This document shows, piece by piece, positions 2,080 through 55,735 of a stretch of DNA of 64,000 nucleotides. The notes beneath the pieces were generated by a model that did no database searches, was not told where the DNA came from, and saw only the letters and a program-made list of their open reading frames with translations. The position numbers and the translations under genes are program-made. Each line of letters begins with the position of its first letter. The stretch's first letter is position 1. The stretch is from Escherichia coli (GTDB lineage: Bacteria; Pseudomonadota; Gammaproteobacteria; Enterobacterales; Enterobacteriaceae), in assembly GCF_003334385.1 (NCBI RefSeq), contig NZ_QOWN01000010.1. The stretch is one strand, 5' to 3'.

Positions 2080-2167
2080 TGGCGGAAGCGCAGAGATTCG
2101 AACTCTGGAACCCTTTCGGGTCGCCGGTTTTCAAGACCGGTGCCTTCAACCGCTCGGCCACACTTCC
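2080..2167 (-). tRNA. serT: tRNA-Ser, anticodon UGA
   Basis: Reverse complement reads GGAAGTGTGGCCGAGCGGTTGAAGGCACCGGTCTTGAAAACCGG...TTCGAATCTCTGCGCTTCCGCCA with long variable arm and CCA end. Confidence 0.93.
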
Positions 2168-2593: not shown

Positions 2594-3712
2594 ATGAATA
2601 ACGAGGAAACATTTTACCAGGCCATGCGGCGTCAGGGCGTTACCCGGCGCAGCTTTCTCAAATATTGTAGTCTGGCTGCCACGTCGCTGGGATTAGGCGC
2701 GGGAATGGCACCAAAGATTGCCTGGGCGCTGGAGAACAAACCGCGCATTCCGGTGGTATGGATCCACGGTCTGGAATGCACCTGCTGTACCGAATCTTTT
2801 ATCCGCTCCGCTCACCCACTGGCGAAGGACGTCATCCTTTCCCTGATTTCCCTCGATTACGACGATACTTTGATGGCTGCCGCCGGAACCCAGGCGGAAG
2901 AAGTCTTTGAAGACATCATCACGCAATACAATGGCAAATATATCCTCGCAGTAGAAGGTAATCCGCCGCTGGGCGAGCAGGGGATGTTCTGTATCAGCAG
3001 CGGTCGACCGTTTATTGAGAAACTCAAACGTGCCGCTGCCGGAGCCAGCGCGATTATCGCCTGGGGAACCTGCGCGTCCTGGGGCTGCGTGCAGGCCGCG
3101 CGACCCAATCCGACGCAGGCAACGCCTATCGACAAAGTCATCACCGACAAACCCATTATCAAAGTACCTGGCTGCCCGCCGATCCCGGATGTGATGAGCG
3201 CCATCATTACTTACATGGTGACCTTTGATCGCTTGCCAGATGTCGACAGAATGGGCCGTCCGCTGATGTTCTATGGTCAGCGAATCCACGATAAATGCTA
3301 TCGCCGCGCCCACTTCGACGCCGGAGAGTTCGTCCAGAGTTGGGATGATGACGCTGCCCGCAAAGGTTACTGCCTGTACAAAATGGGCTGCAAAGGGCCT
3401 ACCACCTATAACGCCTGTTCCTCCACACGCTGGAATGATGGCGTTTCTTTCCCAATCCAGTCTGGTCACGGCTGCCTGGGCTGTGCGGAAAATGGTTTCT
3501 GGGATCGCGGTTCGTTCTACAGCCGCGTGGTCGATATTCCGCAAATGGGTACTCATTCCACCGCCGATACCGTCGGTTTAACCGCGCTTGGCGTGGTGGC
3601 AGCGGCTGTTGGTGTGCACGCAGTCGCCAGCGCCGTTGACCAGCGCAGACGTCATAACCAGCAACCTACAGAAACCGAACATCAGCCAGGCAATGAGGAT
3701 AAACAGGCATGA
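2594..3712 (+). CDS. hyaA: hydrogenase-1 small subunit (NiFe), Tat signal peptide
   Basis: ORF 2567..3712; start at [23 protein letters not shown] (twin-arginine motif); Cys clusters for FeS. Confidence 0.95.
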
Positions 3713-5502
3713 GCACTCAGTACGAAACTCAGGGATACACCATCAATAATGCCGGACGCCGCCTGGTGGTCGACCCGATTACGCGCATCGAAGGCCACAT
3801 GCGCTGCGAAGTGAATATTAACGATCAGAATGTGATCACCAATGCCGTCTCCTGCGGCACCATGTTTCGCGGGCTGGAGATCATCCTACAAGGGCGCGAC
3901 CCGCGCGATGCGTGGGCGTTCGTTGAACGTATCTGCGGCGTCTGTACTGGCGTACACGCCCTGGCTTCGGTTTACGCCATCGAAGATGCTATCGGTATTA
4001 AAGTGCCGGACAACGCCAATATCATCCGCAACATTATGCTGGCAACGCTCTGGTGCCACGATCATCTGGTGCACTTCTATCAGCTTGCCGGGATGGACTG
4101 GATCGATGTGTTAGATGCGCTGAAAGCCGACCCGCGGAAAACCTCCGAACTGGCGCAAAGTCTCTCCTCTTGGCCGAAATCATCCCCTGGCTATTTCTTC
4201 GACGTACAAAACCGCCTGAAAAAATTTGTTGAAGGCGGGCAGTTGGGGATCTTCCGCAATGGCTACTGGGGGCACCCGCAGTACAAACTGCCGCCAGAAG
4301 CTAACCTGATGGGCTTTGCCCACTATCTCGAAGCTCTCGATTTCCAGCGTGAAATTGTCAAAATCCACGCGGTCTTTGGCGGTAAAAACCCGCATCCAAA
4401 CTGGATTGTCGGCGGGATGCCTTGCGCCATCAACATTGACGAAAGCGGCGCGGTCGGGGCAGTCAATATGGAACGCCTGAACCTGGTGCAGTCAATTATC
4501 ACCCGCACGGCGGACTTCATTAACAACGTGATGATCCCCGACGCCTTAGCCATCGGTCAGTTCAACAAACCGTGGAGCGAAATCGGCACTGGTCTTTCTG
4601 ATAAATGCGTTCTCAGCTACGGCGCATTCCCGGATATTGCCAACGACTTTGGCGAGAAAAGTCTGCTGATGCCTGGCGGCGCGGTGATTAACGGCGACTT
4701 CAACAATGTGCTGCCAGTGGATTTGGTTGATCCGCAGCAGGTGCAGGAGTTTGTCGACCACGCCTGGTATCGATATCCCAACGATCAGGTCGGGCGTCAT
4801 CCGTTCGATGGCATCACCGACCCGTGGTACAACCCCGGCGATGTCAAAGGCAGCGATACCAACATTCAGCAGCTGAATGAACAGGAACGCTACTCGTGGA
4901 TCAAAGCGCCACGCTGGCGCGGTAACGCGATGGAAGTGGGGCCGCTGGCGCGCACGTTAATCGCTTATCACAAAGGCGATGCTGCGACCGTTGAGTCGGT
5001 CGATCGCATGATGTCGGCGTTGAACCTGCCGCTTTCCGGTATCCAGTCAACGTTAGGCCGCATTTTGTGCCGCGCGCACGAAGCGCAGTGGGCCGCAGGT
5101 AAGTTGCAGTATTTCTTCGACAAGCTGATGACCAACCTGAAAAACGGCAATCTCGCCACTGCTTCCACGGAAAAATGGGAACCTGCAACCTGGCCGACAG
5201 AGTGCCGTGGTGTCGGTTTTACCGAAGCGCCGCGCGGGGCGTTAGGCCACTGGGCCGCCATTCGCGATGGCAAGATTGATCTCTACCAGTGCGTGGTGCC
5301 GACCACCTGGAACGCCAGCCCGCGCGATCCCAAAGGGCAGATTGGCGCTTATGAAGCGGCGCTGATGAACACCAAAATGGCGATCCCCGAGCAACCGCTG
5401 GAGATCCTGCGTACTCTGCACAGCTTTGACCCGTGCCTCGCCTGTTCAACACACGTGCTGGGCGACGACGGTAGCGAGCTGATCTCCGTGCAGGTGCGTT
5501 AA
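3709..5502 (+). CDS. hyaB: hydrogenase-1 large subunit (NiFe)
   Basis: 597 aa; N-terminal RIEGH..C..C and C-terminal DPCLACSTH Ni-binding motifs; ATGA overlap with hyaA. Confidence 0.96.
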
Positions 5503-11071: not shown

Positions 11072-12370
11072 ATGAAAGCGATCTTAATCCCATTTTTATC
11101 TCTTCTGATTCCGTTAACCCCGCAATCTGCATTCGCTCAGAGTGAGCCGGAGCTGAAGCTGGAAAGTGTGGTGATTGTCAGTCGTCATGGTGTGCGTGCT
11201 CCAACCAAGGCCACGCAACTGATGCAGGATGTCACCCCAGACGCATGGCCAACCTGGCCGGTAAAACTGGGTTGGCTGACACCGCGCGGTGGTGAGCTAA
11301 TCGCCTATCTCGGACATTACCAACGCCAGCGTCTGGTAGCCGACGGATTGCTGGCGAAAAAGGGCTGCCCGCAGTCTGGTCAGGTCGCGATTATTGCTGA
11401 TGTCGACGAGCGTACCCGTAAAACAGGCGAAGCCTTCGCCGCCGGGCTGGCACCTGACTGTGCAATAACCGTACATACCCAGGCAGATACGTCCAGTCCC
11501 GATCCGTTATTTAATCCTCTAAAAACTGGCGTTTGCCAACTGGATAACGCGAACGTGACTGACGCGATCCTCAGCAGGGCAGGAGGGTCAATTGCTGACT
11601 TTACCGGGCATCGGCAAACGGCGTTTCGCGAACTGGAACGGGTGCTTAATTTTCCGCAATCAAACTTGTGCCTTAAACGTGAGAAACAGGACGAAAGCTG
11701 TTCATTAACGCAGGCATTACCATCGGAACTCAAGGTGAGCGCCGACAATGTCTCATTAACCGGTGCGGTAAGCCTCGCATCAATGCTGACGGAGATATTT
11801 CTCCTGCAACAAGCACAGGGAATGCCGGAGCCGGGGTGGGGAAGGATCACCGATTCACACCAGTGGAACACCTTGCTAAGTTTGCATAACGCGCAATTTT
11901 ATTTGCTACAACGCACGCCAGAGGTTGCCCGCAGCCGCGCCACCCCGTTATTAGATTTGATCAAGACAGCGTTGACGCCCCATCCACCGCAAAAACAGGC
12001 GTATGGTGTGACATTACCCACTTCAGTGCTGTTTATCGCCGGACACGATACTAATCTGGCAAATCTCGGCGGCGCACTGGAGCTCAACTGGACGCTTCCC
12101 GGTCAGCCGGATAACACGCCGCCAGGTGGTGAACTGGTGTTTGAACGCTGGCGTCGGCTAAGCGATAACAGCCAGTGGATTCAGGTTTCGCTGGTCTTCC
12201 AGACTTTACAGCAGATGCGTGATAAAACGCCGCTGTCATTAAATACGCCGCCCGGAGAGGTGAAACTGACCCTGGCAGGATGTGAAGAGCGAAATGCGCA
12301 GGGCATGTGTTCGTTGGCAGGTTTTACGCAAATCGTGAATGAAGCACGCATACCGGCGTGCAGTTTGTAA
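11072..12370 (+). CDS. appA: periplasmic phytase / pH 2.5 acid phosphatase (histidine acid phosphatase)
   Basis: ORF 11042..12370; start at MKAILIPFLSLL signal peptide; RHGVRAP active-site motif. Confidence 0.95.
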   Translation: MKAILIPFLSLLIPLTPQSAFAQSEPELKLESVVIVSRHGVRAPTKATQLMQDVTPDAWPTWPVKLGWLTPRGGELIAYLGHYQRQRLVADGLLAKKGCPQSGQVAIIADVDERTRKTGEAFAAGLAPDCAITVHTQADTSSPDPLFNPLKTGVCQLDNANVTDAILSRAGGSIADFTGHRQTAFRELERVLNFPQSNLCLKREKQDESCSLTQALPSELKVSADNVSLTGAVSLASMLTEIFLLQQAQGMPEPGWGRITDSHQWNTLLSLHNAQFYLLQRTPEVARSRATPLLDLIKTALTPHPPQKQAYGVTLPTSVLFIAGHDTNLANLGGALELNWTLPGQPDNTPPGGELVFERWRRLSDNSQWIQVSLVFQTLQQMRDKTPLSLNTPPGEVKLTLAGCEERNAQGMCSLAGFTQIVNEARIPACSL

Positions 12371-12380
12371 TGCATAAAAA

Positions 12381-12407
12381 AGAGCATTCAGTTACCTGAA
12401 TGCTCTG
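12381..12407 (-). terminator. hairpin between convergent appA and etk, T-run on minus strand
   Basis: AGAGCATTCAG / CTGAATGCTCT inverted repeat preceded by AAAAA on plus strand. Confidence 0.6.
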
Positions 12408-12437
12408 AGGCTGATGACAAACGAAGAACTGTCTAAT

Positions 12438-12476
12438 GCGTAGACCGGAAAAGGCGTTCACGCCGCATCCGGCCAC
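12438..12476. repeat. REP (repetitive extragenic palindromic) element
   Basis: GCGTAGACCGGAAAAGGCGTTCACGCCGCATCCGGCC matches the REP family recurring elsewhere in this window. Confidence 0.7.
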
Positions 12477-12484
12477 TTTCAGTT

Positions 12485-14665
12485 TTACTCTTTCTCGGAG
12501 TAACTATAACCGTAATAGTTATAGCCGTAACTGTAAGCGGTGCTGGCGCGTTTAATCACACCATTGAGGATAGCGCCTTTAATATTGACGCCTGCCTGTT
12601 CCAGACGCTGCATTGACAAACTCACCTCTTTGGCGGTGTTCAAGCCAAAACGCGCAACCAGCAGGCTGGTGCCAACAGAACGCCCCACGACCGCGGCATC
12701 ACTCACCGCCAGCATCGGCGGCGTATCGACAATCACCAGATCGTAATGGTCGTTCGCCCATTCCAGTAATTGACGCATCCGATCGCGCATCAGCAGTTCA
12801 GACGGGTTAGGTGGCACCTGACCGCGAGTAATCACATCAAAGCCTCCTTTGCCAAAATGCTGGATCACTTTGTTGAGCTCATCTTTACCTGCCAGATATT
12901 CCGACAAGCCATGTTCATTACTCACGGTAAACAGGTTATGCGAATAACCACGGCGTAAGTCGGCATCAATAAATAACACTTTTTGATCGGACTGGGCGAT
13001 CACCGCTGCCAGAGTTGAACTGACAAACGTTTTACCACTGTCTGGCGTCGCACCGGTGATCATTAGAATGTTATTCTCCGTCTCCATCATAGCGAAATGC
13101 AGACTGGTTCGTAGCGCACGTACGGCTTCCACAGCAGAATCCGCCGGGTTATCCACCGCCAGGAAGGGGATATTTTTAGTACGATGGCGCTGCTGATTAG
13201 AAAATAAATTTTTCTTACGCAGACGGGTGCGTTTATCCAGCCACTCGGACATTGGGATAGTGGCATAAACGCTGATGCCGTGCTCTTCCAGTTGTTCCGG
13301 GGCTTCTACACCACGACGCAACATCGCACGCGCCAGCACGGCACCCACAGAAATAAACAGGCCAAGAATAAAACCAAGCACCACGTTCAACGCTTTTTTC
13401 GGTTTCACTGGCTGCGGCTGAGTGACTGCCGGGTCGATAATCCGCACGTTACCAATGGCACTGGATTTCGAAATACTCAACTCCTGCTGGCGGTTAAGTA
13501 ATTGCAGATATACCGCACGGCCCGCTTCTACGTCACGACTTAAACGCAACACTTCCTGTTGGGTGGAAGGCATTGCCGATACCCGCTTATTCAGGCGTTT
13601 GCGTTCTTGCTCCAGCGTCTGGCGTTTTTCCAGCAGCGCACGATAAGTTGGGTGATCTTTCTTATACAGCTGGGAGATCTCTGCCTCGCGGAAGGTCAGC
13701 TCATTGAGTTGATTATCAACGTTCACAATCTGCTCAAGAACGGCTTTGGCTTCCAGGTTAAGGTCAACCGAATCGCGCTGCTGGCGATAAACGTTGAGTT
13801 TTTCTTCCGCTTGGTCCAGCTCGCTGCGCACTTCAGGTAACTGGCGCTGTAAGAATTCAAGGCTTTGTGAATCCTGCGCCGCCTGGCGAGCGATATTCTG
13901 TTGCAAATAGTTGTTAGCGATGCTGTTCAGAATACGAGTAATCAACTGGGGATCATCACCAGTCATGGTAAGTTCCAGCATCCCGCTTTCTTTACTGCGT
14001 TCGCTAACGGTAAAGGTTTCCTGCAATGCGTTAATCGCTTCCAGTTCGGTACGCTGGCTCAGGACAAACTGTGTTCCTGGTTTGGCCTTAATGTCCGCGA
14101 TAGTCAGCGCAACGCCATCTTTTTCCAGACGCTGGCCGACCATACCATTGACGGTGAACTCTTCACCTTCCAGTGTATAGTGGCCGTTTTCCCCAACCGT
14201 GAGTGTCAGTTGCTGATCCTGACCATTCAGTTGTGGAATATGCATCCAGCTGATCGCCAGCTCACCTGGTTTTTCTTTGGTTAATCTCGCCCAGCCGCGA
14301 CCCACAATCGGAAAATACTTCTGCTCAACTATGTCGCGCAGATTCAGTTCAGCAATGGTTTTACCGAGAATCATGCGCGATTGCAGCAGTTGGATCTCCG
14401 GTGCAGACTCGGGCGATGAGTTAGGGATCATATCGCTCAGGCCGCTGAGAATGGCGTTGCCCTGTTTTTGCTCAACCTGGACCAGAGTATCTGCCTGATA
14501 AATTGGTGTGCTTAACAGCGAGTAAGCGACAGCGATCAGCGTGAATAACGCGGTCACGCTGATAATAAACTTACGGTGATCCCATAACTCGCCGACCAGA
14601 CGAAGCAGATCGATCTCATTTTCCTGAGTGCTGCCTGGTGGCGTATTCATATTTTTAGTTGTCAT
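12485..14665 (-). CDS. etk: tyrosine autokinase Etk (Wzc paralogue, group-4 capsule)
   Basis: 726 aa; Walker A GATPDSGKT; C-terminal Tyr cluster YSYGYNYYGYSYSEKE. Confidence 0.95.
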   Translation of the reverse strand: MTTKNMNTPPGSTQENEIDLLRLVGELWDHRKFIISVTALFTLIAVAYSLLSTPIYQADTLVQVEQKQGNAILSGLSDMIPNSSPESAPEIQLLQSRMILGKTIAELNLRDIVEQKYFPIVGRGWARLTKEKPGELAISWMHIPQLNGQDQQLTLTVGENGHYTLEGEEFTVNGMVGQRLEKDGVALTIADIKAKPGTQFVLSQRTELEAINALQETFTVSERSKESGMLELTMTGDDPQLITRILNSIANNYLQQNIARQAAQDSQSLEFLQRQLPEVRSELDQAEEKLNVYRQQRDSVDLNLEAKAVLEQIVNVDNQLNELTFREAEISQLYKKDHPTYRALLEKRQTLEQERKRLNKRVSAMPSTQQEVLRLSRDVEAGRAVYLQLLNRQQELSISKSSAIGNVRIIDPAVTQPQPVKPKKALNVVLGFILGLFISVGAVLARAMLRRGVEAPEQLEEHGISVYATIPMSEWLDKRTRLRKKNLFSNQQRHRTKNIPFLAVDNPADSAVEAVRALRTSLHFAMMETENNILMITGATPDSGKTFVSSTLAAVIAQSDQKVLFIDADLRRGYSHNLFTVSNEHGLSEYLAGKDELNKVIQHFGKGGFDVITRGQVPPNPSELLMRDRMRQLLEWANDHYDLVIVDTPPMLAVSDAAVVGRSVGTSLLVARFGLNTAKEVSLSMQRLEQAGVNIKGAILNGVIKRASTAYSYGYNYYGYSYSEKE

Positions 14666-20199: not shown

Positions 20200-20640
20200 A
20201 ACTTTTCCTTTATTCATCGCATGGACAATACGTACGCTTGAGATCAGGATTGTCTACTTTGAGTATAACATCCTTGTGAAATCTCCCTTTCCTCATACCG
20301 CTTGCACTATATACTGCGGGTAGGAAAGGCGCGCAGAGGGAAATATAAGATTGTTAACTATCCCCCTCTGGAAATACGACTTGTGAGCATAAGATAAATC
20401 TTAGCAAAATACAAATTAAAGATAAGGAAATTGTTACGAAAGCTATTAATTATTGTTGGTAATATAGTTTCAAGTGGTACTATAACTGGCTGTTAAATGG
20501 CATTTATAACTATTAGGTGCAGAGATATTCGCTTAAATGGATTAGTTTCTTTGTGGAAAAGTAACTGATGTTATAATGTATGATGTTGACTATTGCACTA
20601 TTCCAATAAAACCAGTCAGCTTTAAACAAGCAGCGTCATA

Positions 20641-20853: not shown

Positions 20854-21138
20854 ACAAATTCCTTACTGAAAATACTGCGCTGCACTATACGGGGTTAATA
20901 AAATAAAGCCAGCGATATTTAAGACCGCCGGACGGCTAAAATAAAATTTGCTTAATCTCAATTATCATGCGTTAATAGCTGCGTCGGTTTGAAAGACAGA
21001 CAGCATACAAAGTAGTTTACTAAAGCAGTTCTCATTATCAGGCATTATCCCCTTCTTTTGAGTCTCTCTCCTGAACACTAAGTAGTTTCTGTATTAAAGC
21101 CCTGTTTGCCGAAAGGCCCAAAATGAAGGAAGTAAAAT

Positions 21139-21351
21139 ATGTCTAATAAAATGACTGGTTTAGTAAAATGGTTTAACGCAGATAAAGGTTTTGGCTTTAT
21201 CACTCCTGATGATGGCAGCAAAGACGTTTTCGTCCATTTCACCGCCATCCAGAGCAATGAATTCCGCACGCTGAACGAAAATCAGAAAGTTGAATTTTCT
21301 ATTGAGCAGGGGCAACGTGGCCCCGCGGCAGCGAACGTTGTTACGCTCTAA
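21139..21351 (+). CDS. cspG: cold-shock protein CspG
   Basis: 70 aa; [24 protein letters not shown]1 motif. Confidence 0.95.
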
Positions 21352-21361
21352 GGTTGCCATT

Positions 21362-21550
21362 ATTACTCAACATCTCCATTTCCGCTGTCCATGTTGTCAT
21401 GGTTCACAGTACCGCACATCGGCATTCGATGTGACGGAGCGAAACCCTTTGGGCGCTAAGTGTATTTTTTGTAAATCGACGATGATCACCTTTGATAACG
21501 TCGCGCTGCAAATACGCACTGACCATGCGCCGCTGGATTTCACAAAATAA
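21362..21550 (+). CDS. ymcF: small Cys-rich (CxCC...CxxC) zinc-ribbon-like protein; start codon uncertain, possibly non-ATG
   Basis: Conserved frame ..ITQHLHFRCPCCHGSQYRTSAFDVTERNPLGAKCIFCKST..; the only in-frame ATG lies inside cspG in another frame. Confidence 0.5.
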   Translation: MTQHLHFRCPCCHGSQYRTSAFDVTERNPLGAKCIFCKSTMITFDNVALQIRTDHAPLDFTK

Positions 21551-48982: not shown

Positions 48983-50491
<1,509 letters not shown>

Positions 50492-50790
50492 GGGACTTAG
50501 CCTGCGGCGGTTTTGTTTGGCTTCAGCAGCGGGTTGCGCTCCCTTAATGTGCCTCGCCATATAAATTGAATGGTGCAGGGAGCGCGCAGGGGGCGGCCAA
50601 TCGCCGCCGCCCCCTGCTGTCCCGGCCTTCGGGGAACGCTTCAGCGATTTTGACGCCACCAACACCCGAGCTGTTATTATGTTCCGGGCAAAAAGTTAGA
50701 TTTGATAATCGCGGATGGACGAAATTGCTTGATACACCCGCTTATCAGTTTTACATGGAAGCTCTGATGCATTGAGTCTGGACAGTTTTG

Positions 50791-50826
50791 TCGGCTGGAT
50801 ACGGCGTTTACGCGGCATCCGGCAAG
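50791..50826. repeat. REP element
   Basis: GTCGGCTGGATACGGCGTTTACGCGGCATCCGGCAAG. Confidence 0.65.
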
Positions 50827-50957
50827 AACACATGGTTCTTTGCAAACAATCCCATCTTTCTACCCTGGAATAATCGTTTATATCCCTTGGCATTACCTCT
50901 CTTTGTTTACATTCCAACATCATTTTATAAACATTCCGCTTGTGTTTTTCTTTGCCG

Positions 50958-50977
50958 TAATGATAATCGCTATCACT
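50958..50977 (+). promoter_or_regulatory. Fur box upstream of efeU
   Basis: TAATGATAATCGCTATCACT resembles Fur consensus GATAATGATAATCATTATC; about 60 bp upstream of efeU. Confidence 0.65.
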
Positions 50978-51033
50978 GCGATTTACTTTTCTTTGCATAG
51001 ATTGACTCAGAAAAACGTTTAAGGGTGGGTGGC

Positions 51034-51864
51034 ATGTTTGTTCCGTTTCTCATTATGTTGCGCGAAGGACTTGAAGCCGCGCTGATTGTCAGTTTGATTG
51101 CCAGCTATCTTAAGCGTACCCAGCGAGGCCGATGGATTGGTGTGATGTGGATTGGCGTGTTGCTTGCCGCTGCGTTGTGCCTGGGCTTGGGTATCTTCAT
51201 TAACGAAACCACCGGCGAATTTCCGCAAAAAGAACAGGAACTGTTTGAAGGTATCGTGGCGGTGATCGCCGTGGTGATCCTTACCTGGATGGTTTTCTGG
51301 ATGCGCAAAGTGTCGCGCAACGTCAAAGTGCAACTGGAACAGGCAGTCGATAGCGCATTGCAGCGTGGAAATCATCATGGCTGGGCGCTGGTGATGATGG
51401 TCTTTTTTGCCGTTGCAAGGGAAGGGCTGGAGTCGGTCTTTTTCCTGCTGGCGGCATTTCAACAAGATGTCGGGATCTGGCCGCCGCTGGGTGCAATGCT
51501 CGGTCTTGCTACTGCCGTGGTGCTAGGCTTCCTGCTCTACTGGGGCGGTATTCGCCTCAATCTTGGTGCATTTTTTAAATGGACCAGCCTGTTTATTCTC
51601 TTCGTCGCCGCAGGGCTGGCAGCTGGTGCCATTCGCGCATTTCATGAAGCCGGATTGTGGAACCACTTTCAGGAAATCGCCTTCGATATGAGTGCGGTGC
51701 TCTCAACTCACTCGCTGTTTGGCACGCTGATGGAAGGGATTTTTGGCTATCAGGAAGCGCCGAGCGTCAGCGAAGTCGCCGTCTGGTTTATTTATCTCAT
51801 CCCGGCGCTGGTGGCATTTGCTCTGCCACCACGCGCAGGGGCGACAGCGTCTCGCTCCGCGTAA
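51034..51864 (+). CDS. efeU: ferrous iron permease EfeU (Ftr1 family), intact frame
   Basis: ORF 51025..51864 uninterrupted; start at MFVPFLIMLREGLEAALIV; two REGLE motifs. Confidence 0.9.
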   Translation: MFVPFLIMLREGLEAALIVSLIASYLKRTQRGRWIGVMWIGVLLAAALCLGLGIFINETTGEFPQKEQELFEGIVAVIAVVILTWMVFWMRKVSRNVKVQLEQAVDSALQRGNHHGWALVMMVFFAVAREGLESVFFLLAAFQQDVGIWPPLGAMLGLATAVVLGFLLYWGGIRLNLGAFFKWTSLFILFVAAGLAAGAIRAFHEAGLWNHFQEIAFDMSAVLSTHSLFGTLMEGIFGYQEAPSVSEVAVWFIYLIPALVAFALPPRAGATASRSA

Positions 51865-51921
51865 CAAATACGACGCAAACTCTTGCTTAGTTACAACATA
51901 CTTTAAAGGGATAGTCTCGTC

Positions 51922-53049
51922 ATGACCATTAACTTCCGCCGTAACGCATTGCAGTTGAGCGTGGCTGCGCTGTTTTCTTCTGCTTTTATGGCTAACGCCG
52001 CTGATGTGCCGCAGGTCAAAGTGACCGTGACGGATAAGCAGTGCGAACCGATGACCATTACGGTTAACGCCGGGAAAACACAGTTCATTATTCAGAACCA
52101 CAGCCAGAAGGCGCTGGAGTGGGAGATCCTCAAAGGCGTGATGGTGGTGGAAGAGCGGGAAAATATCGCCCCTGGCTTTAGCCAGAAAATGACGGCGAAT
52201 TTACAGCCTGGCGAATACGATATGACCTGCGGTCTGCTGACTAACCCGAAAGGGAAGTTGATCGTCAAAGGTGAGGCAACGGCGGATGCGGCGCAAAGTG
52301 ATGCGCTGTTAAGTCTTGGTGGTGCAATTACTGCATATAAAGCGTATGTCATGGCGGAAACCACGCAGCTGGTGACCGACACCAAAGCCTTTACCGACGC
52401 GATTAAAGCAGGCGATATCGAAAAAGCGAAAGCACTGTATGCACCGACGCGCCAGCACTATGAGCGTATTGAACCGATTGCTGAACTGTTCTCCGATCTG
52501 GATGGCAGCATTGACGCCCGTGAAGATGATTACGAGCAAAAAGCCGCCGACCCAAAATTCACTGGTTTCCACCGTCTGGAAAAAGCATTGTTTGGCGACA
52601 ACACCACCAAAGGGATGGATCAGTACGCTGAGCAGCTTTATACCGATGTGGTCGATTTGCAAAAACGCATCAGTGAACTGGCTTTCCCACCTTCAAAAGT
52701 GGTCGGCGGCGCAGCCGGACTGATTGAGGAAGTGGCAGCCAGCAAAATTAGCGGTGAAGAAGATCGCTACAGCCACACCGATCTGTGGGATTTCCAGGCT
52801 AACGTTGAAGGCTCGCAGAAAATTGTCGATTTGCTGCGTCCACAACTGCAAAAAGCCAACCCGGAACTGCTGGCAAAAGTCGATGCCAACTTTAAAAAGG
52901 TCGATACCATTCTGGCGAAATACCGTACTAAAGACGGTTTTGAAACCTACGACAAATTGACCGATGCCGACCGGAATGCACTGAAAGGACCGATTACTGC
53001 GCTGGCGGAAGATCTGGCGCAACTTCGCGGTGTGCTGGGACTGGATTAA
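51922..53049 (+). CDS. efeO: periplasmic iron uptake protein EfeO
   Basis: 375 aa, signal peptide, recognised. Confidence 0.93.
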
Positions 53050-53054
53050 GCGTT

Positions 53055-54326
53055 ATGCAGTATAAAGATGAAAACGGCGTGAATGAACCGTCACGCCGAC
53101 GTTTACTGAAAGTGATAGGTGCACTGGCGCTGGCGGGAAGTTGTCCGGTCGCTCATGCACAAAAAACGCAAAGTGCGCCGGGTACGCTTTCACCGGATGC
53201 TCGCAATGAGAAACAGCCGTTTTATGGTGAGCATCAGGCAGGGATCCTGACGCCACAACAGGCCGCAATGATGCTGGTGGCGTTTGATGTGCTTGCCAGC
53301 GATAAAGCCGATCTTGAGCGGTTGTTTCGCTTGTTGACTCAGCGTTTTGCTTTTCTGACTCAGGGCGGAGCAGCACCAGAAACGCCAAATCCGCGCCTGC
53401 CACCACTCGATTCCGGCATTCTTGGCGGCTACATTGCGCCCGATAATCTCACCATCACGTTATCGGTGGGTCACTCATTGTTTGATGAGCGCTTTGGCCT
53501 TGCGCCACAGATGCCAAAAAAGCTGCAGAAGATGACGCGTTTCCCCAACGACTCGCTGGATGCGGCGTTATGTCATGGTGATGTGTTGCTACAGATTTGC
53601 GCCAACACCCAGGACACGGTTATCCATGCGCTGCGCGATATCATCAAACACACGCCGGATTTGCTCAGTGTGCGCTGGAAGCGGGAAGGGTTTATTTCCG
53701 ATCACGCGGCGCGTAGTAAAGGCAAAGAGACGCCGATTAATTTGCTGGGTTTCAAAGACGGCACTGCCAATCCCGATAGCCAGAATGATAAGTTGATGCA
53801 AAAAGTGGTGTGGGTAACGGCAGATCAGCAGGAGCCTGCGTGGACAATCGGTGGCAGCTATCAGGCAGTACGCTTGATTCAGTTTCGAGTGGAATTTTGG
53901 GACAGAACGCCGCTGAAAGAACAGCAGACGATTTTTGGCCGTGATAAGCAAACCGGTGCGCCGCTGGGAATGCAGCATGAGCATGATGTGCCTGATTACG
54001 CCAGCGACCCGGAAGGGAAGGTGATCGCGCTGGACAGCCATATCCGGCTGGCGAATCCCCGCACGGCGGAGAGTGAGTCCAGCCTGATGCTGCGTCGTGG
54101 CTACAGTTATTCACTGGGCGTCACCAACTCCGGGCAACTGGATATGGGGTTGCTGTTTGTCTGCTACCAACACGATCTGGAAAAAGGCTTCCTGACAGTA
54201 CAAAAAAGGCTCAATGGCGAAGCGCTGGAGGAATACGTTAAACCTATCGGCGGCGGTTATTTTTTTGCGCTGCCGGGGGTGAAGGACGCGAACGATTATT
54301 TCGGAAGCGCGTTATTGCGGGTTTAA
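53055..54326 (+). CDS. efeB: dye-decolorising (DyP-type) haem peroxidase EfeB, Tat-exported
   Basis: 423 aa; [16 protein letters not shown] twin-arginine signal. Confidence 0.94.
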
Positions 54327-54335
54327 TGTTTTTAG

Positions 54336-54470
54336 GCGGATAAGGCATTTGTGCGCAGATGCCTGATGCGACGCTTGCGCGTCTTATCATGCCTACAATC
54401 AGTGCGGGTTTGGTAGGCTGGATAAGGCGTTCACGCCGCATCCGGCGATCGTGCACTGATGCCTGATGCA
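54336..54470. repeat. BIME / REP cluster downstream of efeB
   Basis: Three alternating REP units (GGCGGATAAGGCATTTGTGCGCAGATGCCTGATGCGACGC..., GGCTGGATAAGGCGTTCACGCCGCATCCGGCG). Confidence 0.7.
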
Positions 54471-54503
54471 AATCCTGCTGAAAGCACACAGCTTTTTTCA
54501 TCA

Positions 54504-54521
54504 CTGTCATCACTCTGTCAT
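54504..54521 (+). promoter_or_regulatory. Pho box (PhoB binding site) upstream of phoH
   Basis: CTGTCAT-CACT-CTGTCAT direct repeat, 4-bp spacer. Confidence 0.75.
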
Positions 54522-54670
54522 CTTTCCAGTAGAAACTAATGTCACTGAAATGGTGTTTTATAGTTAAATATAAGTAAATATGTTGTTGCAATAAATGCGA
54601 GATCTGTTGTACTTATTAAGTAGCAGCGGAAGTTCCCGGCAGTGATAGTCAGTCACTATGGAGATCGCGG

Positions 54671-55735
54671 ATGGTAACGTCCTGTACTGGACATGTTTTA
54701 GATAATCAACGCGCCACCACTCGCGGAGTTTTCTCCTCCGGTAGTCATCTCGTCACTTTGCATTTTCAACCTCATCCTTTCTTTTCATGTGTTACCGACG
54801 CCGTAAACGGTGCGCGTAGCCGTTTTTCGGCATTTTATCCAAAAGCAAACTATGGCTTACAAGGAAGCCAACCCTCTGATGTTCGTGCGCATAATCGCGC
54901 TGCCAACGGCGCGTGTGATGAATACAAACAACTCAAGGTGCTCTCCATGGGAAGACAAAAAGCAGTGATCAAAGCTCGTCGCGAGGCAAAACGTGTGCTG
55001 AGACGGGATTCGCGCAGCCATAAGCAGCGTGAAGAAGAATCGGTCACCTCGCTTGTGCAGATGGGCGGCGTAGAAGCCATTGGTATGGCCCGCGACAGTC
55101 GCGATACTTCGCCCATCCTCGCGCGAAATGAAGCGCAATTGCACTATCTGAAGGCTATTGAGAGTAAGCAGCTGATATTCGCCACGGGCGAAGCCGGGTG
55201 CGGAAAAACCTGGATCAGCGCAGCAAAAGCGGCAGAGGCCCTGATACATAAGGATGTCGACAGGATTATCGTCACCCGTCCAGTTCTGCAAGCCGATGAA
55301 GATCTTGGCTTCTTACCTGGAGATATCGCAGAAAAGTTTGCTCCCTATTTTCGCCCGGTCTACGACGTGCTGGTCCGGCGCTTAGGGGCTTCCTTTATGC
55401 AGTACTGCCTGCGACCGGAAATAGGGAAGGTGGAAATTGCGCCGTTCGCCTATATGCGTGGACGTACCTTTGAAAATGCAGTCGTCATTCTTGACGAGGC
55501 GCAGAATGTGACTGCCGCGCAAATGAAAATGTTTTTAACCCGCCTCGGGGAGAACGTGACGGTTATCGTCAACGGTGATATCACGCAATGCGATTTGCCT
55601 CGCGGCGTGTGCTCCGGATTAAGTGACGCGCTGGAACGTTTCGAAGAAGATGAAATGGTTGGGATCGTCCGGTTCGGTAAAGAGGACTGCGTACGTTCGG
55701 CACTTTGCCAACGTACGCTGCATGCCTACAGTTAA
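54671..55735 (+). CDS. phoH: phosphate-starvation-inducible ATPase PhoH
   Basis: 354 aa; Walker A GEAGCGKTW. Confidence 0.93.
   Translation: MVTSCTGHVLDNQRATTRGVFSSGSHLVTLHFQPHPFFSCVTDAVNGARSRFSAFYPKANYGLQGSQPSDVRAHNRAANGACDEYKQLKVLSMGRQKAVIKARREAKRVLRRDSRSHKQREEESVTSLVQMGGVEAIGMARDSRDTSPILARNEAQLHYLKAIESKQLIFATGEAGCGKTWISAAKAAEALIHKDVDRIIVTRPVLQADEDLGFLPGDIAEKFAPYFRPVYDVLVRRLGASFMQYCLRPEIGKVEIAPFAYMRGRTFENAVVILDEAQNVTAAQMKMFLTRLGENVTVIVNGDITQCDLPRGVCSGLSDALERFEEDEMVGIVRFGKEDCVRSALCQRTLHAYS

What the first reader, a model, noticed from the sequence alone, without database searches (positions are those of the whole stretch)
51034..51864. efeU is an intact open frame, so the EfeUOB ferrous-iron system is potentially functional
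The ORF 51025..51864 runs uninterrupted for 276 to 279 codons with both REGLE iron-permease motifs, followed by intact efeO and efeB. In K-12 efeU is a frameshifted pseudogene as far as I recall, so this window derives from a strain with a functional operon or a repaired allele.
Basis: partly seen in the sequence, partly recalled or inferred. Interest (0 to 1): 0.35.

Follow-up and report, generated by a model that had tools for sequence, protein, structure and literature searches.

The report
Intact efeU in K-12-like E. coli
This E. coli window carries the normal, unbroken iron-permease gene efeU, which laboratory K-12 has lost through a one-base deletion; that is the usual state for the species and is already well documented.

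Summary
Window 51034..51864 (+) is an uninterrupted 831-nt, 276-codon efeU, or 279 codons from the GTG at 51025. REGLE motifs sit at residues 10-14 and 129-133, and intact efeO (51922..53049) and efeB (53055..54326) follow.

The window is collinear with MG1655 1029546..1094321. Across the 1,426 nt around efeU the only difference is one extra G (GG at window 51139-51140; K-12 has a single G). Without it, K-12 reads RWIV-TGA and stops after 36 residues.

The window is not K-12 and not a repaired K-12. It lacks IS1D, has 14 SNPs (at least 8 private), and its nearest relatives are natural K-12-like isolates with the same intact allele.

The K-12 allele is exact in 368 of 5,418 complete E. coli genomes, and 62 of the 63 carriers I saw listed look like laboratory strains. 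The window's allele is exact in 3,588.

The window's EfeU is 100% identical to O157:H7 EfeU, the background in which EfeUOB was shown to function. It passes the NCBIfam EfeU equivalog cut-off. EfeO, EfeB and the upstream region, including a Fur-box-like site, are identical to K-12.

This is an ordinary, ancestral, presumably functional EfeUOB operon. It is already known and of low interest.

The parts
50956..50974 (+). Fur-box-like site (CGTAATGATAATCGCTATC), 60-78 nt upstream of the efeU ATG
   Evidence: It matches 15 of 19 positions of the Fur consensus GATAATGATAATCATTATC and is the only site in the 64-kb window at 15/19 or better on either strand. It is identical in MG1655. Fur binding was not tested here.
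51025..51033 (+). Alternative upstream GTG start (gives 279 aa) and the Shine-Dalgarno-like AAGGGTGGG stretch
   Evidence: The ORF list uses GTG 51025. RefSeq homologues start at the ATG equivalent to 51034.
51034..51864 (+). efeU: intact 276-aa Ftr1-type inner-membrane iron permease
   Evidence: 831 nt with no internal stop. NCBIfam EfeU equivalog 331 bits against cut-off 255. Pfam FTR1 2e-89 over residues 1-275. 100% aa identity to O157:H7 EfeU WP_000497942.1.
51061..51075 (+). First REGLE (RExxE) motif, aa 10-14
   Evidence: CGC GAA GGA CTT GAA read directly from the sequence; motif position.
51139..51140 (+). GG dinucleotide. K-12 has a single G here, and that one-base deletion is the K-12 frameshift (codon 36).
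   Evidence: It is the only non-identical column in 1,426 aligned nt against MG1655. K-12 frame 0 reads ...RGRWIV*.
51418..51432 (+). Second REGLE (RExxE) motif, aa 129-133
   Evidence: AGG GAA GGG CTG GAG read directly from the sequence; motif position.
51922..53049 (+). efeO: periplasmic iron-uptake protein, 375 aa
   Evidence: NCBIfam EfeO equivalog 479.5 bits against cut-off 270, and PRK10378 772 bits. Nucleotide-identical to MG1655 efeO.
53055..54326 (+). efeB: Tat-exported DyP-type haem peroxidase/deferrochelatase, 423 aa
   Evidence: TIGR01412 617.7 bits against cut-off 428. The N-terminus reads [17 protein letters not shown], a twin-arginine motif. Nucleotide-identical to MG1655 efeB.

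Best explanation
Window 51034..54326 is the ordinary, ancestral efeUOB operon of an E. coli strain that is very closely related to K-12 but is not K-12. EfeU is an Ftr1p-like inner-membrane permease whose two REGLE motifs are thought to ligate iron in the translocation path. EfeO is a periplasmic protein and EfeB is a Tat-exported DyP haem peroxidase. By the published model, periplasmic Fe2+ is captured and oxidised by EfeO/EfeB and handed to EfeU for import. The operon is reported to be Fur-repressed, acid-induced and CpxAR-controlled. K-12 lost this system through deletion of one G in codon 36 of efeU. The window keeps that G, so all three genes are intact. Shown here: the intact frames, the motifs, family membership, identity to an allele from a background where the system works, and the ancestral status of the allele. 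Inferred: that the system is expressed and transports iron in this strain.
For: The frame is open at 831 nt and 276 aa with REGLE at aa 10 and 129. A single extra G is the only difference from MG1655 in 1,426 nt spanning the promoter, efeU and the efeO start. The K-12 allele terminates after 36 aa, and K-12 efeU is annotated as a pseudogene. EfeU, EfeO and EfeB all exceed NCBIfam equivalog cut-offs, and Pfam FTR1 matches full length. EfeU is 100% identical to O157:H7 EfeU. EfeUOB is reported functional in O157:H7 and cryptic in K-12 because of the efeU frameshift (Cao et al. 2007 and Grosse et al. 2006, as cited in PMC7549933, PMC2808357, PMC4361602 and PMC4746246). The window's allele is exact in 3,588 genomes and the K-12 allele in 368 of 5,418. 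Of the 63 distinct K-12-allele carriers listed, 62 are K-12 laboratory strains or appear to be derivatives of them. The window lacks IS1D and has 14 SNPs against MG1655. The nearest natural isolates, FDN-9 and CFSAN051542, carry the identical intact EfeU protein. A Fur-box-like site lies upstream.
Against: No experiment was done, so expression and transport in this strain are inferred. EfeO differs from the O157:H7 protein at 1 aa and EfeB at 5 aa, so the exact three-protein combination tested in O157:H7 is not the one here. The consensus sigma-70 scan found no promoter-like site between 50450 and 54700, so the promoter was not located by these tools. No solved structure of an EfeU relative exists to check the motif geometry.
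Confidence: 0.93

Rival explanations
1. The window comes from a K-12 laboratory derivative in which the efeU frameshift was repaired, either by spontaneous +1 reversion or by deliberate engineering.
For: The 8 kb around efeU is 99.975% identical to MG1655. efeO, efeB, putP and the promoter region are identical to K-12. The window shares the IS3 insertion next to dgcT with K-12. The literature describes restoring the function in K-12 with an in-frame operon (PMC7549933).
Against: The window lacks IS1D, with a clean empty site. It has 14 SNPs in 64 kb. At four of these (20595, 27525, 33976, 34738) the window shares its base with natural isolates and K-12 is the odd one out. The IS3 junction and the intact efeU also occur together in natural isolates from cheese, chicken and frog. 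A repaired K-12 would match K-12 at all of these sites.
Confidence: 0.03
2. The gene is intact but the system is inactive or silent in this strain, for example through loss of expression or a defect elsewhere such as Tat export or haem supply.
For: Function was not measured. No sigma-70 consensus promoter was detected upstream. A published efeOB deletion in an ExPEC strain had no virulence phenotype (PMC7549933), so the system can be dispensable.
Against: The 542-nt upstream region is identical to K-12. All three proteins are full length and above equivalog cut-offs. EfeU is identical to the O157:H7 protein.
Confidence: 0.04

Closest known systems
EfeUOB (YcdNOB) of E. coli O157:H7 (Cao et al. 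2007, Mol Microbiol 65:857, as cited in PMC7549933 and PMC4746246)
   Same: Same efeU-efeO-efeB gene order. EfeU is 276/276 aa identical, EfeO 374/375 and EfeB 418/423, compared with O157:H7 strain PV15-279.
   Different: efeU differs at 5 synonymous nucleotides. EfeO differs at 1 aa and EfeB at 5 aa. In that O157:H7 strain the putP-efeU spacer holds an extra 1,344-nt hypothetical ORF that is absent here.
efeU pseudogene of E. coli K-12 MG1655 (b4490, formerly ycdN / b1016+b1017)
   Same: Every nucleotide from the end of putP to the start of efeO is identical except one. efeO and efeB are identical.
   Different: K-12 lacks one G of the GG at window 51139-51140, which gives a TGA stop after 36 residues. 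The window has the G and an open frame.
EfeU of E. coli Nissle 1917 (Grosse et al. 2006, Mol Microbiol 62:120, as cited in PMC2808357 and PMC7549933) and yeast Ftr1p
   Same: Ftr1-type permease with two RExxE motifs. An ST73-like UPEC genome (clone D i14), used here as a proxy for the Nissle lineage from my own knowledge of E. coli sequence types, has EfeU 273/276 identical to the window's.
   Different: The differences from the proxy are M8I, A263V and A276M. The Nissle genome itself was not retrieved. Yeast Ftr1p works with the multicopper oxidase Fet3p rather than with EfeO/EfeB (established knowledge, not tested here).

Membership tests
EfeU / Ftr1 iron permease family | Full-length match to the curated family models above their cut-offs | tested here: met
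   NCBIfam NF041756 EfeU equivalog 331.2 bits (cut-off 255) and TIGR00145 351.7 bits (cut-off 303.8). Pfam FTR1 PF03239 2e-89 over residues 1-275 of 276.
EfeU / Ftr1 iron permease family | Two RExxE (REGLE) motifs | tested here: met
   REGLE at aa 10-14 and aa 129-133; nt 51061-51075 and 51418-51432.
EfeU / Ftr1 iron permease family | Seven transmembrane helices | tested here: inconclusive
   A crude Kyte-Doolittle scan (19-aa window, threshold 1.6) gives six clear hydrophobic segments: about 1-24, 32-60, 68-94, 146-173, 177-204 and 242-266. The segment carrying the second REGLE (about 117-140) falls below the threshold. No dedicated topology predictor or solved relative was available.
EfeU / Ftr1 iron permease family | Fe2+ uptake activity | not testable with these tools
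   Inferred only from 100% aa identity to O157:H7 EfeU and from the literature on that system.
EfeUOB tripartite operon | efeU followed by intact efeO and efeB on the same strand | tested here: met
   efeO 51922..53049 and efeB 53055..54326 are open and above NCBIfam equivalog cut-offs (479.5 against 270; 617.7 against 428). The gaps between genes are 57 nt and 5 nt.
EfeUOB tripartite operon | EfeB carries a twin-arginine (Tat) signal and a DyP peroxidase domain | tested here: met
   The N-terminus reads ...[17 protein letters not shown].... TIGR01412 'tat_substr_1' and TIGR01413 DyP match.
EfeUOB tripartite operon | Fur- and pH/CpxAR-dependent regulation | tested here: inconclusive
   A Fur-box-like site with 15 of 19 matches lies at 50956-50974, the only such site in the window. 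The upstream region is identical to K-12. No CpxR site search or binding test was done.
K-12 efeU pseudogene allele | Single-G deletion in codon 36 giving a premature TGA | tested here: not met
   The window has GG where MG1655 has G, and the frame stays open.
E. coli K-12 lineage (strain identity) | IS1D between gfcA and cspH, plus sequence identity to MG1655 | tested here: not met
   IS1D is absent, with an empty site at window 20224-20232. There are 14 SNPs over 64 kb.

The most novel reading that the evidence does not exclude
The source strain is a natural, very close relative of K-12 (about 2 SNPs per 10 kb, and the same IS3 insertion at dgcT) that keeps pre-K-12 ancestral states at loci K-12 has lost: an intact efeU and no IS1 upstream of gfcA. 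Together with FDN-9, which has IS1D and IS3 but an intact efeU, it suggests an order for K-12's local decay: IS3 first, IS1D next, the efeU frameshift last. The frameshift allele also occurs in at least one food isolate (TUM12357). That hints it may predate laboratory domestication.
Probability: 0.6. Interest if true: 0.15.

Novelty: already known. Interest (0 to 1): 0.07.

Why it matters
It matters little beyond correct annotation. The window should be annotated with a functional efeU CDS rather than the K-12 pseudogene, and metabolic or iron-uptake models of this strain should include a third ferrous-iron route alongside Feo and MntH/ZupT. It also reminds us that K-12 is the exception at this locus. 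The K-12 frameshift allele is exact in about 7% of complete genomes, and nearly all the carriers I saw listed look like laboratory strains.

Tried and rejected
1. The repaired-K-12 hypothesis is rejected, because IS1D is missing and 14 SNPs separate the window from MG1655. At four of them (20595, 27525, 33976, 34738) the window agrees with natural isolates and K-12 is the odd one out.
2. I looked for the exact source genome among 5,426 complete RefSeq E. coli genomes using two 25-kb queries. None scored as high as a perfect match should (my estimate, about 46,168 bits; best observed 46,139 to 46,175, the higher values being joined multi-piece matches). The source strain remains unidentified.
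3. The sigma-70 consensus scan of 50450-54700 found no promoter-like site, against 3.3 expected by chance. That is uninformative. The 12 terminator-like hits lie inside coding sequence and were not pursued.
4. A sequence search of the PDB with EfeU found no solved relative.
5. The primary paper, Cao et al. 2007 (PMID 17627767), is not held in the library, so its claims are cited second-hand through four open-access papers.
6. The Pfam MFS_1 hit on EfeU (4e-6) was dismissed as a transmembrane-composition artefact beneath the full-length FTR1 match.
7. An Rfam scan of the whole window found nothing in the efeUOB region.

Full report
**Observation**

The ORF listing shows one open frame at 51025..51864 on the + strand, 279 aa from a GTG. 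The ATG at 51034 gives 831 nt and 276 aa. RefSeq uses that start and length for efeU in homologous genomes.

REGLE occurs twice, at aa 10-14 (nt 51061-51075) and aa 129-133 (nt 51418-51432). efeO (51922..53049, 375 aa) and efeB (53055..54326, 423 aa) follow on the same strand, after gaps of 57 and 5 nt, and both are open.

**What it is**

- EfeU matches the NCBIfam EfeU equivalog at 331 bits (cut-off 255) and TIGR00145 at 352 bits (cut-off 304).
- EfeO matches its equivalog at 479.5 bits (cut-off 270).
- EfeB matches TIGR01412 at 618 bits (cut-off 428).
- Pfam FTR1 covers residues 1-275 of EfeU at 2e-89.
- EfeB begins with a twin-arginine signal, SRRRLLK.
- No relative of EfeU has a solved structure detectable by sequence.

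**Comparison with K-12**

MG1655 annotates efeU (b4490) as an 830-nt pseudogene. I aligned window 50500-51925 with the MG1655 counterpart. That gives 1,426 columns, and 1,425 of them are identical. The only difference is a G present in the window and absent in K-12, within GGATTGGTGTG against GGATT-GTGTG. This is the GG at window 51139-51140, CDS nt 106-107, codon 36.

Translating the K-12 sequence gives ...RGRWIV followed by TGA, a 36-residue product. The rest of the protein continues in the +2 frame. efeO, efeB and putP are nucleotide-identical to MG1655.

**Which strain**

The whole window is collinear with MG1655 1029546..1094321, with three kinds of difference:

- **SNPs.** There are 14 SNPs.
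- **The efeU G.** The window carries the extra G described above.
- **IS1D.** The 768-nt IS1D and its 9-bp target duplication are absent, leaving a clean empty site at window 20224-20232 upstream of gfcA.

The last 77 nt of the window are the end of an IS3 at exactly the K-12 IS3D site.

Two 25-kb queries against 5,426 complete E. coli genomes found no record that scored as high as a perfect match should. The best single-piece matches to 39001-64000 are natural isolates: CFSAN051542 from cheese, FDN-24 and FDN-9 from chicken, and ES5 from a frog. K-12 strains score just below them.

CFSAN051542 has the IS3, no IS1D, and intact efeU. FDN-9 has the IS3, IS1D, and intact efeU. In both, EfeU is WP_000497942.1, the same protein as in O157:H7.

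Ten of the 14 SNP sites could be scored in FDN-9 and eight of those also in CFSAN051542; one further site could be scored in CFSAN051542 only. At four sites (20595, 27525, 33976, 34738) the window agrees with the relative(s) scored and K-12 is the odd one out. At eight sites the window base is private.

The window therefore comes from an independent lineage very close to K-12, not from a repaired K-12.

**Population view**

An 81-nt probe with the window's allele is exact in 3,588 of 5,418 genomes that have the locus. The 80-nt K-12 probe is exact in 368. The remaining genomes carry SNPs in the probe region, and their frame was not checked individually.

together listed 63 distinct carriers of the K-12 allele. 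Sixty-two are MG1655, C600, DH5alpha, DH1, J53, NCM3722 and other strains that are, or appear to be, laboratory K-12 derivatives. The exception is TUM12357, a 5.03-Mb isolate from imported chicken meat, whose efeU RefSeq flags as 'frameshifted'.

Copies 100% identical to window 50900-51950 are annotated 'iron uptake transporter permease EfeU' in at least 40 genomes, including E. coli C and ETEC H10407.

**Comparison with experimentally studied alleles**

Against O157:H7 strain PV15-279:

- EfeU is 276/276 aa identical (5 synonymous nucleotide differences).
- EfeO is 374/375 identical (E237D).
- EfeB is 418/423 identical.

Against an ST73-like UPEC genome (clone D i14), used as a proxy for the Nissle lineage, EfeU is 273/276 identical.

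Open-access papers state the following. The MG1655 system is non-functional because of a frameshift in efeU. An in-frame operon restores growth under iron restriction. EfeUOB is functional in non-K-12 strains. These statements cite Grosse et al. 2006 and Cao et al. 2007 (PMC2808357, PMC7549933, PMC4361602, PMC4746246). The primary Cao paper is not held in the library.

**Mechanism**

This part is inferred from established knowledge of the family. EfeU is an Ftr1p-type permease whose RExxE motifs line the iron path. EfeO (periplasmic) and EfeB (a Tat-exported DyP haem peroxidase) capture and oxidise periplasmic Fe2+ and pass iron to EfeU. Expression is reported to be Fur-repressed and acid-induced under CpxAR control.

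In the window, a Fur-box-like sequence (CGTAATGATAATCGCTATC, 15 of 19 matches) lies at 50956-50974. It is the only site that good in 64 kb, and the whole upstream spacer is identical to K-12. The simple sigma-70 scan found no consensus promoter, so the promoter position is not established here.

**Verdict**

The repaired-allele alternative is rejected. This is the normal ancestral state of a well-characterised operon; K-12 is the known exception. Novelty is 'already known' and interest is low.

Noticed in passing
window 20224-20232: The IS1D that K-12 carries between gfcA and cspH is absent, leaving a clean empty site (GACAATACG occurs once). From my own knowledge, that IS1 is held to silence the gfc (group 4 capsule) operon in K-12, so the gfc promoter region may be intact in this strain.
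   Followed up: partly
window 63924-64000: The window ends 77 nt into an IS3 copy at exactly the K-12 IS3D site next to dgcT. The same junction occurs in the natural isolates FDN-9 and CFSAN051542, so this insertion is older than K-12.
   Followed up: partly
L006 (FDN-9, NZ_CP158140.1) 12137-12967 and 43793-44490: The chicken isolate FDN-9 has IS1D at gfcA and the IS3 at dgcT but an intact efeU. This suggests the efeU frameshift is the youngest of the three K-12 lesions in this region.
   Followed up: partly
L007 (TUM12357, NZ_CP134370.1) 2935-3764: A 5.03-Mb isolate from Brazilian chicken meat carries the exact K-12 frameshift allele, annotated 'frameshifted'. The lesion may exist outside laboratory stocks, or this strain may have acquired K-12-like DNA.
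   Followed up: no
window 17648, 24038, 27755, 34486, 39589, 42134, 54582, 56176: Eight SNPs are private to the window: the K-12 base is also found in FDN-9 and/or CFSAN051542, whichever could be scored at that site. Six of the eight are G:C to A:T transitions. They include torS A607T, yccE A258V and pgaD T8I.
   Followed up: partly
window 27755: A private G-to-A change 7 nt upstream of the torC ATG turns CAGGGGTT into CAGGAGTT, which is closer to the Shine-Dalgarno consensus.
   Followed up: no
window 54582: A private A-to-G change in the efeB-phoH intergenic region. K-12, FDN-9, CFSAN051542 and O157:H7 all have A.
   Followed up: no
window 50492-51033; L004 1411-2754; L005 3716-3934: The putP-efeU spacer varies between lineages. 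It is 542 nt here and in K-12, and 219 nt in the UPEC genome clone D i14. In O157:H7 PV15-279 it holds an extra 1,344-nt hypothetical ORF on the opposite strand.
   Followed up: no
window 55537-55730 (-), 20983-21405 (+), 32088-32166 (-), 38053-38095 (-), 2083-2167 (-): Rfam gathering-level hits are Ysr251 antisense to the 3' part of phoH, a cspA-type thermoregulator leader upstream of cspG, naRNA4, ES036, and tRNA-Ser (serT). The SNP at 2168 lies immediately 5' of the tRNA.
   Followed up: no
summary (E. coli genomes): Seven matches to the efeU region lie on records labelled as plasmids, and 8 of 5,426 genomes have no match at all. Neither group was examined.
   Followed up: no
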